Program-made: the position numbers
In this document: positions 35,101 to 38,100 of the stretch, piece after piece
Position numbering within the stretch: position 1 is the stretch's first letter
Layout of the letters: every line of letters begins with the position of its first letter
NCBI GenBank assembly: GCA_044866005.1
Contig: JBIOTN010000067.1
Span: forward strand, 15,068 to 79,067
Direction of reading: 5' to 3'
Length of the DNA: 64,000 bases
Source: Candidatus Rokuibacteriota bacterium
GTDB taxonomy: Bacteria; Methylomirabilota; Methylomirabilia; Rokubacteriales; DASRDR01

Positions 35101-38100
35101 GTCGGACGGACGGCGAGGAGGCGAGGGCGGGAAGTCGCCGCATGGGCCGCTCGGGAGGAGGCCGACACCGTGAACCTGTCACGCTGGGGTTGGGGTTCCC
35201 GCGCCTCCCGGCTCGGATTGTTGGTGCTGGTGGGCCTGGCGGCGCCGGCGCTCGCGGCCTCGGGGCCCGGCGACGCGCCCAGGGACCCCTTCGACACCAT
35301 GGGCGTGCACCGTCCGGCGGAGCCGGCGCCGGCTCCGGATCTGGCCTTCCGGTCGCTGGACGGTCGCGAGGCGCGCCTGCGCGACCTCCGGGGCAAGGTG
35401 GTCCTCCTCGGTTTGTTCCGGACCGACTGACCCAACTGCCGGCGGGAGGCTCCCGCCAAGGCGGCGCTGTATCGGGCGTTCCGGGCAAAGGGACTGGAAG
35501 TCGTGGGACTCGACCTGGGGGAATCGGCGGAGATGGTCCGAGCCTTCGCGAGAGAGTTCCAGGTGACGTTCCCCATGTGGCTCGACCCCGCGGGCCAGAG
35601 TCCGGCGGCCCTCGGCGTCTACGGGCATCCCAACACGATCGTCATCGACCGCGAGGGCCGCATCGTCGGCCGCGTCCGGGGCGAGCGTGACTGGGGCACC
35701 GACGACGCCCGACGTCTGGTCGAGGTCCTGTTGAGCCGCCGATGACCCGGAAAACGGGGCTGGCCAGAATGCCGCGAGCGGCGTGGCTCGCCGGCCTCGT
35801 CGTCCTGCACGCCGCCGTCGCCGCCGTGGCGACGTGGATGGCGGTCACCGGGCAATGGCCCCGCGCGCTGGGGCTCGGAGCGGCCGGCGAGTCCACGCCG
35901 GCGACCCTGGAGACGCTCGGCCGGTACGGCGAACTGCCGGACTTCCGGCTGACCGAGCGGAGCGGCGACAGTGTGAGCCGGGCCGACCTGCTCGGGAAGG
36001 TCTGGGTGGCGAACTTCGTCTACACGCAGTGCACCGAGACGTGCCCGCTGCAGACGGCCGAGATCGCGCGACTCCAGGCCGAGTTCGTGGGGGAGGCGGA
36101 CTTCCGGCTCGTCTCGATCACCGTGGACCCCGAGCGGGATGACACGGCGGCCCTGTCGCGCTACGCGGAGCGCTACGGAGCGGACAGGCAGCGCTGGCTG
36201 TTCCTCACCGGGGACAAACGCGCGATCTACCGCCTCGCCAAGGACGGCTTCCGCCTGGGCGTCGTCGATCCCGACGACCCCGGAGCGAGCCAGACGAGCC
36301 TTCTCCACTCCTTCTCACCGGCCGCGGCGTGGGCGACCCACGGCTCCCAGGGCCTGATCATGCACAGCTCCCGGTTGGTGGTCGTGGACCGGACCGCGAC
36401 GATCCGCGCCTATCACCTCCCCGACGACCCGCAATCGCTCGCTCGTCTCCGGCGGAACGTGCGGAGCGTGCTCCACCCGTGAACCAGCTCTGGAGGCTCG
36501 GCCGCTGGGCGGCCGCTGGCCTGGTCGTCGCCGTCGTGGCCAAGGTCAGCCTGGAGATCATGCGCGGCGGCCCGGGCCGCCACAACGTCGAGGCGGTGCG
36601 CGACGCGCGCGGCGGATGAGGTCGCCGATGCCTCGCCTCGGAAAGTACGCCATGGTGCTCGTCCCGGCCGTCGGCCTGATCGGGCTCCTCGCCTATGGCT
36701 TTAGCCGGGACCCCCGCGACATCCGCTCGCCGCTCCTCGGGCGCCCCGCCCCGCCGCTGTCGCTGACGCTCTTCGACGGCAGCCGGTTCGTCCTGGCCCA
36801 GCAGGCGGACAAGGTCGTCGTCGTGAACTTCTGGGCGTCCTGGTGCCTGCCGTGCCGGGACGAGGCGCCGCTCCTCGAGGCCGCCTGGGTCGCCTACCGG
36901 GAGCGCGGGGTCGTCGTGGTCGGGGTAAACTTTCAGGACGCGGAGCCCGCCGCGCGCGCCTTCCTCGGTGAGTTCGGCCTGACGTACCCGAACGGGCCCG
37001 ACGCCGGTGGGCGGATCGCGATCGGCTACGGCGTCTACGGGATCCCCGAGCTGTTCGTCATCGGGCGGGACGGGCGGATCGCGTACAAGCACATCGGCGC
37101 GATCGGGGGGACTGTGCTCGTGGCGAAGGTCGAAGAGGCCCTCCGCGGCACGGTCAGCGCGAGCGAGGGGCGGAGCGGGCGCTATCAACCGATCCGGTGA
37201 CCGAAAGGAGCCACTCGGTGTCGCAGGACGATCGGAACGTCGAGCGATCGCGCATCACGCTGCTGGCCGGAGGCCTCGCCCTGGCGCTCACCCTGGCGAC
37301 CCGGCGGGAATCTCGCGCGGCGCCAACGCCCTTTCCCGAGGTCATGGTCTACAAGACCCCGACCTGACGCTGCTGCGACGCGTGGGTGGGGCACCTGCGC
37401 CAGCACGGGTTTTCGGTGACGGTCGAGAATCGCACGGACCTCCGGCCGATCAAGGCGAAGCACGCGGTGCCGGCCGAGCTCCAGACCTGTCACACGGCGC
37501 TCGTCGGCGGCTACGTCGTGGAAGGGCACGTGCCGGCCGACCTGATCGTCCGCCTGCTCCGCGAGCGGTCGCCGGTGGCCGGCCTCGCCGTCCCCGGGAT
37601 GCCGGTCGGGTCGCCCGGGATGGAAGTGCCGGGGAGCCCGGCGGCCAAATATCAGGTCTTCAGCTTCGACCGGAGCGGCAAGACGACGGTGTTCGCGAGC
37701 CGGTGAGACGGCATGGCGGGAGCCGGTCGCCGCGGCGTGCTGGTCGGTTTCGGTCTCGCGGCCCAGGTCCTGGGCGCGGTGGGCCCCGCCGGGGCGACGC
37801 CGCTCCAGAACCTGGCCGACGACCAGGTCGTCCGGACGATCCGCTACTGCCGCGGCGAGTACCGGCTCACCATGGCGAGCGGCGCGCGCCGGCGCTTCCC
37901 CGAGTTCAACCTGCGCTTCAAGACCGATGGCAGCCGGGAAGGCCCGGAGCGCGGCCGGCCGGTGTTACTGCCGGCCGGGATGCAAGGGGACCGCGGGCAG
38001 GTGATCTTCAGCGGCCCGGAGGAGCTCAGGCGCTTCCTCGTCGAGGGGTGTGACGGCACGCCGTAGCGGGGGTGCCGCGGCCCTTCTCATCCTTCTGCTG

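What a model noticed while it worked through the whole genome (the two positions that open the first line are those of the whole stretch)
37218..37706. Selenocysteine form of the copper-cluster protein CopG (DUF411): U-x-C-C instead of C-x-C-C
Gene calls g01300 (49 aa) and g01301 (DUF411, 106 aa) are one 162-aa secreted CopG-family protein read through a TGA at the first cysteine of the family's C-x-C-C motif (KTPT-U-RCC-DAW). I read it as a selenoprotein CopG in which selenium bridges the tetranuclear copper cluster that this motif builds in the solved Cys form, inside a copper-resistance island with several more selenoproteins. New would be a selenoprotein family not in the current lists and a natural Se-ligated copper cluster.
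Evidence so far: Read-through C67:52285-52770 (+). Of 74 matches listed for 65 of 251 Methylomirabilota genomes, 57 have one in-frame TGA, 16 none and 1 two: the usual Sec/Cys pair pattern. Pfam DUF411 on the downstream half; no NCBIfam model hits the read-through. Island C67:25-56 kb: two Cu P-type ATPases, MerR regulators, multicopper oxidase g01294, two Sco1 proteins, DsbD, TlpA-likes, plus further TGA-split genes: MerP/CopZ-like g01278+g01279, Thioredoxin_3 g01280, BNR propeller g01292+g01293. DUF411/CopG absent from Table 1 of PMC13188914.
(Added by a program. Inside this text positions count along the whole contig: contig position 15,068 is position 1 of the stretch shown here. "Call 12" and the like, gene names such as g00115 and contig names such as C1 are that model's own, and its searches are not shown. 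The text may have been shortened before it was handed on; [...] marks where a part breaks off. The agent that wrote the report below was given it as the finding of a first reader that could run no searches.)

Follow-up and report, generated by a model that had tools for sequence, protein, structure and literature searches.

The report
Selenocysteine form of copper protein CopG
A "stop" codon inside this small exported copper-handling gene (CopG/DUF411) is almost certainly read as selenocysteine at the first cysteine of its metal-binding motif, and the same overlooked form occurs in many soil and groundwater bacteria that annotation pipelines cut in two.

Summary
Window 37218-37706 (+) is one 162-codon gene, with TGA at codon 50 (37365-37367) at the first Cys of CopG's C-x-C-C motif.

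Evidence that the TGA codes selenocysteine:
- The genome holds tRNA-Sec, selA, selB and selD.
- In the phylum, 57 of 57 homologues with one TGA carry it at this codon. 13 informative copies have Cys.
- selB is present in 6 of 6 Sec-form genomes tested, and in 0 of 5 proteobacterial or cyanobacterial Cys-form genomes.
- A hairpin of at least 7 bp follows the Sec codon in 53/55 and 78/97 genes. It follows the same genes' true stops in 8/54 and 21/64, and the Cys codon in 22/116.

The model matches solved CopG (TM 0.9) and puts Sec at the N-cap of helix 1.

No selenoprotein list I could read names this family; two relevant papers were not held. Selenium ligation of the copper cluster is inferred, not tested. 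This scan has noted the same family on at least 12 other genomes.

The parts
37205..37210 (+). Shine-Dalgarno-like AAGGAG, 7 nt before the GTG start
   Evidence: read directly
37218..37706 (+). CopG/DUF411 gene: 162 codons with one in-frame TGA, plus a TGA stop
   Evidence: translation; Pfam PF04214, 86.7 bits; 6wis, E 1.5e-29, residues 43-160
37218..37322 (+). N-terminal export signal region (about residues 1-35: basic stretch, hydrophobic run ITLLAGGLALALTLA, then SRA-AP). The cleavage site is not determined.
   Evidence: sequence; helix 3-31 with lower pLDDT in the model; no signal-peptide predictor was available
37365..37367 (+). TGA read as selenocysteine (U50). It aligns with the first Cys of C-x-C-C in solved CopG and in the Cys homologues.
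37371..37376 (+). TGC TGC: Cys52 and Cys53 of the U-R-C-C motif (invariant)
37380..37400 (+). Candidate SECIS hairpin: 9-bp stem (6 G-C pairs) with loop GGG at 37389-37391. The loop starts 21 nt after the UGA. The hairpin is encoded by A-W-V-G-H-L-R.
   Evidence: -13.4 kcal/mol; z -1.85 against synonymous shuffles; enrichment
37383..37385 (+). Trp56, invariant. A review passage describes the conserved Trp of CopG as lying close to a metal ion.
   Evidence: invariant column; passage in PMC8424229
37599..37622 (+). M128-P-V-G-S-P-G-M135: the two conserved Met residues that reviews name as cluster ligands in CopG
   Evidence: passages
37704..37706 (+). True TGA stop of the gene. The next ORF starts 7 nt later.
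33552..35096 (+). Multicopper oxidase, same strand, upstream in the same gene run
   Evidence: three Cu-oxidase domains; copper_res_A subfamily model, 252 bits, below its cut-off
35742..36482 (+). SCO1/SenC copper chaperone-type protein
36616..37200 (+). TlpA/DsbE/ResA-like periplasmic thiol:disulfide reductase (Cys form, WCLPC). It ends 17 nt before the CopG start.
37713..38066 (+). 117-aa ORF of no known family, directly downstream. Found after CopG in 2 of 29 related loci.

Best explanation
Window 37218-37706 is a single gene for an exported, thioredoxin-fold CopG (DUF411) protein. Its codon 50, UGA, is decoded as selenocysteine by the genome's own SelA/SelB/SelD/tRNA-Sec system. The 9-bp hairpin that starts 12 nt after the UGA probably helps this decoding.

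The product carries U-R-C-C where relatives carry C-x-C-C. In the model, Sec50 sits at the N-terminal cap of helix 1, directly after strand 1. That is the place of the attacking cysteine of a thioredoxin-type CxxC pair, so U50...C53 reads as a UxxC pair.

Inferred mechanism: the selenolate replaces the first thiolate of the site that, with C52, C53 and the two Met residues, holds copper in solved CopG. A selenolate is softer, fully deprotonated and easier to recover from oxidation. This would tune the Cu(I)/Cu(II) oxidoreductase and copper-handling role proposed for CopG. In this genome the protein works beside a multicopper oxidase, SCO1 and TlpA-like reductases that could keep the site reduced.

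Shown here: gene structure, homology, fold, the Sec/Cys pairing, the machinery and hairpin enrichment.

Inferred: actual selenium insertion, selenium-copper bonding, redox tuning and re-reduction by the neighbouring proteins.

I put about 0.9 on the gene-level reading and about 0.5 on the copper-cluster chemistry.
For: Homology and fold:
- The read-through aligns over residues 43-160 with solved CopG (6wis/6wje, E 1.5e-29), with U50 opposite the first Cys of C-G-C-C.
- The AlphaFold model has pLDDT 90.1. Strand 42-46 lies upstream of the TGA and helix 51-62 downstream, with pLDDT 96-97 across the junction.
- Foldseek gives 6wis/6wje at TM 0.89-0.91 and rmsd 1.5-1.7 A. Glutaredoxins come next.

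Machinery in the same genome:
- tRNA-Sec, 76 bits.
- selA, 595 bits.
- selB, 382 bits.
- selD, 392 bits, itself with one TGA.

Sec/Cys pairing:
- 57 of 57 one-TGA homologues in the phylum have the TGA at this codon, and 13 informative copies have Cys.
- 97 of 119 pattern hits elsewhere are strong Sec-CopG genes, labelled as about ten phyla.
- The tree needs at least 20 Sec/Cys changes across 236 rows.

Machinery tracks the Sec form:
- selB is over its cut-off in the own genome and in 5 of 5 other Sec-form genomes.
- It is over cut-off in 0 of 5 proteobacterial or cyanobacterial Cys-form genomes.
- It is over cut-off in 3 of 4 Cys-form genomes of Sec-rich phyla.

Hairpin:
- A stem of at least 7 bp lies 12-37 nt after the codon in 53/55 (phylum) and 78/97 (scan) Sec genes.
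- At the same position in Cys forms the figures are 7/12 and 22/116.
- At the true stops of the same genes they are 8/54 and 21/64, and at random in-frame places 84/275 and 93/485.
- The window gene is more stable than 96% of its synonymous-codon shuffles (z -1.85).

Start and context:
- A Shine-Dalgarno box precedes GTG 37218 and none precedes GTG 37386.
- Copper context in the window.
Against: - No protein, selenium or copper measurement exists.
- Against dinucleotide shuffles the hairpin is not unusual (z -0.18 and -0.84).
- Much of the stem is forced by the conserved residues W-V-x-H-L, and Cys forms keep a weaker version.
- In a fixed register, covariation (0.120) is matched by slid controls (up to 0.132).
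- The phylogenetically independent test has only 4 supported pairs: about 3 go the same way, p about 0.25.
- The Sec-versus-Cys difference in synonymous-shuffle z-scores is borderline (p 0.087 and 0.051).
- Copper linkage is not general. None of 5 Sec loci in other phyla has a copper gene within 6 kb, and gene order around CopG is kept in only 1-2 of 29 phylum loci.
- Which of the three cysteines bridges which copper could not be read, because the structure paper was not held.
Confidence: 0.8

Rival explanations
1. Selenocysteine is inserted, but the protein is not mainly a copper-cluster protein. The U50...C53 pair would act as a general periplasmic UxxC selenol/thiol oxidoreductase, or it would bind another soft metal or metalloid (Hg, Ag, Se).
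For: - Sec sits at the attacking-Cys position of a thioredoxin fold. UxxC is the commonest motif in Table 1 of PMC13188914.
- None of 5 Sec-form loci in other phyla lies beside copper genes.
- One phylum locus (L027) lies next to MerR/MerB.
- Passages in PMC8456105 report that the conserved Cys and Met residues of CutG are dispensable for maturation of the multicopper oxidase.
Against: - All residues that reviews name for the copper site are invariant: C52, C53, W56, M128, M135 (passages).
- The window's gene lies in a run with a multicopper oxidase and SCO1, near two heavy-metal ATPases.
- Other phylum copies lie beside a multicopper oxidase, CusB-like or RND genes, or P-type ATPases.
Confidence: 0.15
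2. The UGA is read through without selenium, for example by near-cognate Cys or Trp insertion. Alternatively it simply terminates, and the functional product is the 106-residue ORF from GTG 37386.
For: - Public gene calls store such genes as 106-residue fragments.
- Dinucleotide-shuffle z-scores of the hairpin are unremarkable.
Against: - A 106-residue product would lack the signal peptide, strand 1 and the whole U/C-x-C-C motif, which are confidently part of the fold.
- No Shine-Dalgarno box precedes GTG 37386.
- The upstream frame is conserved in 57 phylum genes and 97 other genes.
- Sec forms were found only in selB-positive genomes, 6 of 6 tested.
- The genome uses TGA as an ordinary stop, including this gene's own stop.
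Confidence: 0.04
3. It is a pseudogene, or a sequencing or assembly error that created a nonsense codon.
For: A single in-frame stop is what a fresh nonsense mutation looks like. One Cys copy elsewhere (L322) does look decayed.
Against: - The same TGA at the same codon occurs in 57 of 57 phylum copies and 97 further species genomes. The reading frames are otherwise intact and the catalytic residues invariant.
- The own genome and the five others tested have no second CopG copy.
Confidence: 0.01

Closest known systems
CopG of Pseudomonas aeruginosa (DUF411, PF04214; PDB 6WIS/6WJE) and CutG of Rhodobacter capsulatus
   Same: - Same family and fold: E 1.5e-29 over 118 residues; TM 0.9, rmsd about 1.6 A, 44% identity.
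- Same conserved x-C-C, Trp, C-H-T, E-G-H and M-P-x-G-S-P-G-M elements.
- Exported.
- Here also linked to a multicopper oxidase, as review passages describe for copG/cutG.
   Different: - The first Cys of C-x-C-C is a UGA codon, read here as selenocysteine.
- Many copies outside this window are not in copper gene clusters.
- Copper binding by the Sec form is untested.
Thioredoxin-fold UxxC selenoproteins (thioredoxin, glutaredoxin, DsbA-like, TlpA-like and Prx-like families of Table 1, PMC13188914)
   Same: - Sec replaces the N-terminal, helix-capping Cys of a CxxC-type pair in a thioredoxin-like fold.
- Sec/Cys pairs occur among orthologues.
- The hairpin follows the UGA inside the coding region.
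   Different: - The motif is U-x-C-C, with an extra Cys, and it serves a metal cluster in the Cys form.
- The family is not in that table, and no NCBIfam model hits it.
Predicted metal-handling selenoproteins: SO_0444 family Cu/Zn efflux transporter (UxC), metal-binding protein NF041115 (UxxU), cation-transporting ATPase (UxxC), YHS-domain protein (GxU)
   Same: Sec stands at a presumed soft-metal ligand position in proteins of metal resistance or homeostasis (Table 1 and text of PMC13188914).
   Different: These are unrelated folds and families. None has a solved multinuclear copper cluster in its Cys form.
Selenoenzymes in which Sec ligates a metal: formate dehydrogenase (Mo/W) and [NiFeSe] hydrogenase (Ni)
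   Same: Selenium is a direct ligand of a redox-active metal. The review text says this protects against over-oxidation.
   Different: The metal would be copper and the site a multinuclear cluster. A natural Se-Cu site is not among the cases described in the text I read.

Membership tests
CopG / DUF411 (PF04214) | Pfam DUF411 match over the gathering score | tested here: met
   86.7 bits against a cut-off of 27, residues 88-135
CopG / DUF411 (PF04214) | Full-length similarity and the same fold as solved CopG (6WIS/6WJE) | tested here: met
   E 1.5e-29 over residues 43-160; model pLDDT 90.1; TM 0.89-0.91, rmsd 1.5-1.7 A
CopG / DUF411 (PF04214) | C-x-C-C motif: the first Cys | tested here: inconclusive
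   The codon is TGA. The sequence shows a recoded position aligned with Cys, but the residue actually inserted cannot be read from DNA.
CopG / DUF411 (PF04214) | Second and third Cys, conserved Trp, and the two Met residues of the copper site | tested here: met
   C52, C53, W56, M128 and M135 are invariant in 38 aligned sequences. Their roles are as stated in review passages.
CopG / DUF411 (PF04214) | Periplasmic or exported location | tested here: inconclusive
   The N-terminus has a basic stretch followed by a hydrophobic run and is modelled as a helix. No signal-peptide predictor was available.
CopG / DUF411 (PF04214) | Binds a tetranuclear copper cluster; Cu(I)/Cu(II) oxidoreductase activity | not testable with these tools
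   Needs purified protein.
CopG / DUF411 (PF04214) | Genetic linkage to copper resistance genes | tested here: met
   Met in the window: multicopper oxidase, SCO1 and two heavy-metal ATPases. Not met in 5 of 5 Sec-form loci sampled in other phyla.
Bacterial selenoprotein gene | In-frame UGA aligned with Cys in homologues (Sec/Cys pair) | tested here: met
   57 of 57 one-TGA phylum copies carry it at this codon, and 13 informative copies have Cys. Elsewhere, 97 Sec and 116 Cys forms.
Bacterial selenoprotein gene | tRNA-Sec, SelA, SelB and SelD in the same genome | tested here: met
   All are over their curated cut-offs.
Bacterial selenoprotein gene | SECIS hairpin shortly after the UGA, with G in the apical loop (criteria recalled, not from a call) | tested here: met
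   9-bp stem, loop GGG, 21 nt after the UGA. It is enriched over true stops, random places and Cys forms. Covariation and independent-pair tests are not decisive.
Bacterial selenoprotein gene | Selenium in the protein | not testable with these tools
   Needs 75Se labelling or mass spectrometry.

The most novel reading that the evidence does not exclude
CopG of many soil, groundwater and sediment bacteria is a natural copper selenoprotein. A selenolate, not a thiolate, would be a ligand, possibly a bridging one, of a multinuclear copper cluster. That would be the first natural Se-Cu site. In Sec-using lineages such as Methylomirabilota, Vicinamibacterales and Gemmatimonadota this Sec form, not the textbook Cys form, would be the usual CopG, gained or lost many times.
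Probability: 0.35. Interest if true: 0.8.

Novelty: new variant of a known kind. Interest (0 to 1): 0.62.

Why it matters
- It adds a widespread family to the prokaryotic selenoproteome. The family is absent from the 119-family table of 2026 and from NCBI's naming models, so these genes are stored as truncated fragments.
- It places selenium in the copper-binding motif of a protein whose Cys form has a solved tetranuclear copper cluster. That makes a natural selenium-copper site directly testable against an existing Cys structure.
- A cultured isolate (Helicobacter brantae record, L126/L330) carries the Sec form, so the test need not rely on uncultured bacteria.
- It gives gene callers a concrete rule: P-T-TGA-x-C-C-x-x-W upstream of a DUF411 fragment.

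Tried and rejected
- **RNA evidence.** No RNA holder was listed for window 36616-38066, so no reads were laid.
- **Rfam.** Nothing near any family's threshold in 37150-37750.
- **Fixed-register covariation.** On 142 Sec sequences, 76.1% of cells pair against 71.1% in shuffles (0 of 500 reach it). The covariation score of 0.120 is matched by slid controls at 0.126 and 0.132, so this is not decisive.
- **Independent-pairs test of Sec state against hairpin.** Only 4 supported pairs, so it is underpowered.
- **Synonymous-shuffle z-scores.** The Sec-versus-Cys difference is borderline (Mann-Whitney p 0.087 and 0.051).
- **A selenium link in H. brantae.** The AIRS-family gene next to CopG looked like selD but is purM (385 bits). 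Rejected.
- **Conserved operon.** The TlpA-like gene lies upstream in 1 of 29 phylum loci, orf117 lies downstream in 2 of 29, and the 302-aa ORF is found in 0 of 29. There is no fixed operon.
- **Papers not held.** Hausrath 2020 (PMC7415965), Haft & Tolstoy 2025 (PMC12013261) and Deng 2026, Cell Rep.
- **One control was invalid.** L203, used, is not a CopG locus. I dropped it from the count.
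Full report
**1. What is in the sequence**

Window 37218-37706 (+) translates, with TGA read as U, to a 162-residue protein followed by a TGA stop. It contains a single internal TGA at 37365-37367, in the context K-T-P-T-U-R-C-C-D-A-W. Under table 11 the stretch falls into ORF 37197-37367 and ORF 37386-37706 (106 aa). GTG 37218 is preceded by AAGGAG at 37205-37210 with a 7-nt spacer. 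GTG 37386 has no such box. The upstream gene ends with TGA at 37198-37200 and this gene itself ends with TGA, so TGA is an ordinary stop in this genome.

**2. Family and fold**

- Pfam DUF411 matches residues 88-135 (86.7 bits, cut-off 27). No NCBIfam model matches at E<=0.1.
- Against solved structures the only hit is the DUF411 protein of 6wis/6wje (E 1.5e-29). It covers residues 43-160, so it runs across the TGA. U50 stands opposite the first Cys of N-C-G-C-C.
- An AlphaFold model was built on 38 aligned sequences. It has mean pLDDT 90.1, strand 42-46, helix 51-62, and pLDDT 96-97 over residues 41-60.
- Foldseek returns the CopG chains at TM 0.89-0.91 (normalised to the target) and rmsd 1.5-1.7 A. 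Glutaredoxins and thioredoxin-like proteins follow at E>0.03.
- Sec50 therefore caps helix 1 directly after strand 1, which is the place of the attacking cysteine in thioredoxin-fold CxxC proteins. U50 and C53 form a UxxC pair.
- A product starting at 37386 would lack the export signal, strand 1 and the whole motif.

**3. Decoding machinery**

The genome holds all four components, each over its curated cut-off:
- tRNA-Sec at C79:3620-3713, 76 bits.
- selA at C79:5134-6501, 595 bits.
- selB at C79:6530-8407, 382 bits.
- selD at C1:1101-2021, 392 bits, itself with one in-frame TGA.

**4. Sec/Cys pairs within the phylum**

There are 74 matches in 65 of 251 genomes: 57 with one TGA, 16 with none and 1 with two. 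I cut out 70 of the 74 matches. The four not cut out were the three partial matches and the two-TGA match.
- In 57 of 57 one-TGA matches the TGA is the first Cys of the motif.
- Three of the 16 matches without TGA do not reach the motif, which leaves 13 informative Cys forms.
- Three genomes (G236, G243, G082) carry one copy of each kind.
- G217 and G218 are unpublished and are both Sec forms. Without them there are 55 Sec rows of 72.

**5. Beyond the phylum**

Read through, 97 of the 119 are strong CopG matches at E<=1e-20.

By the depositors' record titles the Sec forms are labelled as follows:

| Phylum label | Sec forms |
|---|---|
| Acidobacteriota | 33 |
| Gemmatimonadota | 23 |
| Chloroflexota | 12 |
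| Rokubacteria/Methylomirabilota | 9 |
| Pseudomonadota | 4 |
| Binatota | 2 |
| Myxococcota | 2 |
| Campylobacterota, Actinomycetota, Tectimicrobiota, Verrucomicrobiota | 1 each |
| unplaced | 8 |

The same pattern with TGY returned 120 loci, also truncated, of which 116 are Cys forms, mostly Pseudomonadota. No Sec:Cys ratio can be drawn from two truncated scans. On a FastTree of 236 rows, with the Sec/Cys column masked, at least 20 changes of state are needed.

One Sec form lies in a cultured isolate, a Helicobacter brantae record (L126/L330). In that low-GC genome the gene has AAAGGAG, an ATG, a signal peptide, S-P-T-TGA-G-C-C, and a 5-bp stem with loop GGUC.

**6. Machinery follows the Sec form**

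- selB is over its cut-off in 5 of 5 Sec-form genomes from five other phyla, and in the own genome.
- It is over cut-off in 0 of 5 Cys-form genomes of cultured or complete Pseudomonadota and Cyanobacteria.
- It is over cut-off in 3 of 4 Cys-form genomes from Sec-rich phyla. The fifth genome was dropped because its locus is not a CopG.
- Each of the five Sec-form genomes has no second CopG copy.

**7. The hairpin**

In the window, 37380-37400 folds as a 9-bp stem (6 G-C pairs) with loop GGG at -13.4 kcal/mol. The loop starts 21 nt after the UGA.

This is a GC-rich gene, and the stem is partly dictated by the residues W-V-x-H-L.

Better controls separate it. The table counts sites with a stem of at least 7 bp lying 12-37 nt downstream:

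| Site | Phylum set | Scan set |
|---|---|---|
| Sec codon | 53/55 | 78/97 |
| Cys codon in Cys forms | 7/12 | 22/116 |
| True stop of the same Sec genes | 8/54 | 21/64 |
| Random in-frame places in the same genes | 84/275 | 93/485 |

- Within Gemmatimonadota the figures are 19/23 for Sec forms and 2/11 for Cys forms.
- Leu after His, whose first base pairs with the Trp codon, is present in 95/97 Sec forms and 59/116 Cys forms.
- Against shuffles of synonymous codons within each gene, the window gene has z -1.85, with 4% of shuffles as stable. Phylum Sec forms average z -0.94 and Cys forms -0.33 (p 0.051). In the scan set, 27% of Sec forms and 6% of Cys forms reach p<=0.05.
- Weaknesses: fixed-register covariation is matched by slid controls. 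Only 4 phylogenetically independent supported pairs exist, of which about 3 go the expected way.
- The register differs between lineages. Loops include GGT, GTT and GGTCTTG.
- The criteria for bacterial SECIS elements and the GGUC loop of E. coli fdhF are recalled, not taken from a call.

**8. Context**

In the window the gene sits in a same-strand run:
- redoxin, 30103-30651
- DsbD-type membrane protein, 30662-31429
- multicopper oxidase, 33552-35096
- SCO1, 35742-36482
- TlpA/DsbE-like redoxin, 36616-37200
- CopG
- a 117-aa ORF with no family
- a 302-aa ORF with weak, sub-threshold YtkA and CopD hits

Two heavy-metal P-type ATPases lie at 10398-13031 (-) and 16954-19368 (+). A MerR regulator lies at 25619-26080.

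This setting is not general.
- None of 5 Sec loci in other phyla has a copper gene within 6 kb.
- Among the 114 longest of 437 frames in 29 phylum loci, 6 of 20 Sec loci had a metal-related neighbour: a multicopper oxidase, an RND pump, two CusB-like genes, MerR/MerB and a P-type ATPase. In the same scan, 6 Cys copies lay beside a YHS+HMBD P-type ATPase.

**9. What is known about CopG**

This is from passages only. Reviews state that periplasmic CopG has a thioredoxin-like domain. They say it binds a tetranuclear copper cluster through the CxCC motif and two Met residues, contributes to copper resistance under anaerobic conditions, and is proposed to interconvert Cu(I) and Cu(II) and to pass copper on (PMC7558416; PMC8456105; PMC8872213). 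A conserved Trp lies near one metal ion (PMC8424229). The primary paper was not held, so the exact role of the first Cys is not established here.

**10. Is it in print?**

- Full-text searches found nothing relevant: selenoprotein+DUF411 gave 0 papers; selenoprotein+COG3019 gave 0; PF04214 gave 0; CopG+selenocysteine gave 20 listed papers, none relevant by title or abstract; DUF411 alone gave 58, with none of the 30 listed on selenium.
- I read the whole of Table 1 (119 families) of the 2026 review PMC13188914. It has no DUF411, CopG or PF04214.
- BSepDB has none of the terms in its main text or its one held supplement.
- deep-Sep has none in its main text or its four supplements.
- Peng 2016 and GOS 2008 have none in their main text. 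Their supplements were not searched.
- Public protein collections name the relatives 'DUF411 domain-containing' or 'hypothetical', and hold the Sec forms as 106-aa fragments.
- Not seen: Haft & Tolstoy 2025, and Deng et al. 2026 with its supplements. The latter predicted 63 selenoprotein genes in a Methylomirabilota genome (passage). The Sargasso and Olavius papers were seen only as summarised in Table 1.
- This scan's own earlier AI notes describe the same Sec-CopG on at least 12 other genomes. My reading was formed before I saw them, and it rests on the calls above.

**11. Verdict**

The gene-level reading, one gene with UGA decoded as Sec at the first Cys of CxCC, is very probably right (about 0.9). 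The chemistry, a selenolate as copper-cluster ligand and redox tuner, is a reasonable inference (about 0.5) and is directly testable. The finding is a new selenium variant of a known copper protein family. It is widespread and unannotated, and it is apparently uncatalogued.

Noticed in passing
G000:C1:1101-2021 (-), outside the window: The genome's selD match (392 bits) itself contains one in-frame TGA, so it is a Sec-containing SelD. That is a known selenoprotein type.
   Followed up: no
G000:C79:3620-8407, outside the window: tRNA-Sec, selA and selB lie together on one contig (3620-3713, 5134-6501, 6530-8407).
   Followed up: partly
window 38050-38958 (+) and 37713-38066 (+): The 302-aa ORF after CopG has weak, sub-threshold YtkA (8.5e-5) and CopD (1e-3) matches. 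The 117-aa ORF has no family, and a copy of it lies within the locus held around CopG in 2 of 29 related loci.
   Followed up: partly
window 26639-28081 (-): A 480-aa ORF joins SPW repeats to a VKOR (vitamin K epoxide reductase) domain, close to the MerR gene at 25619-26080.
   Followed up: no
L019, L021, L022, L023, L024, L038 (relatives in the window's family): Six Cys-form CopG genes lie directly beside a P-type ATPase with YHS and HMBD domains and an acid-phosphatase gene. The Sec forms in the same phylum have more varied neighbours.
   Followed up: partly
G236, G243, G082: These genomes carry one Sec and one Cys copy of CopG each.
   Followed up: no
L330:5947-6368 (Helicobacter brantae record): A cultured isolate holds a Sec-form CopG with a clear ribosome-binding site, ATG and signal peptide, and a short stem with a GGUC loop after the TGA. 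Its neighbours are ybeY and purM, not copper genes.
   Followed up: partly
60 residues upstream of the Sec codon in phylum homologues: 46 of 54 phylum Sec forms show a loose twin-arginine-like R-R-x-hydrophobic-hydrophobic motif, which hints at Tat export. The window's own protein has R-S-R instead. The motif test is crude.
   Followed up: partly
L322 (G238:C5): A Cys-form copy has a garbled stretch between the motif and C-H-T and may be decaying.
   Followed up: no
G160:C42:195-575: This is the single match with two TGA codons (39% identity). I did not examine it.
   Followed up: no
codon 51 of the window gene (37368-37370): The residue after Sec is Arg here. It is Gly in 51 of 55 phylum Sec forms and in 92 of 97 scan Sec forms.
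   Followed up: no
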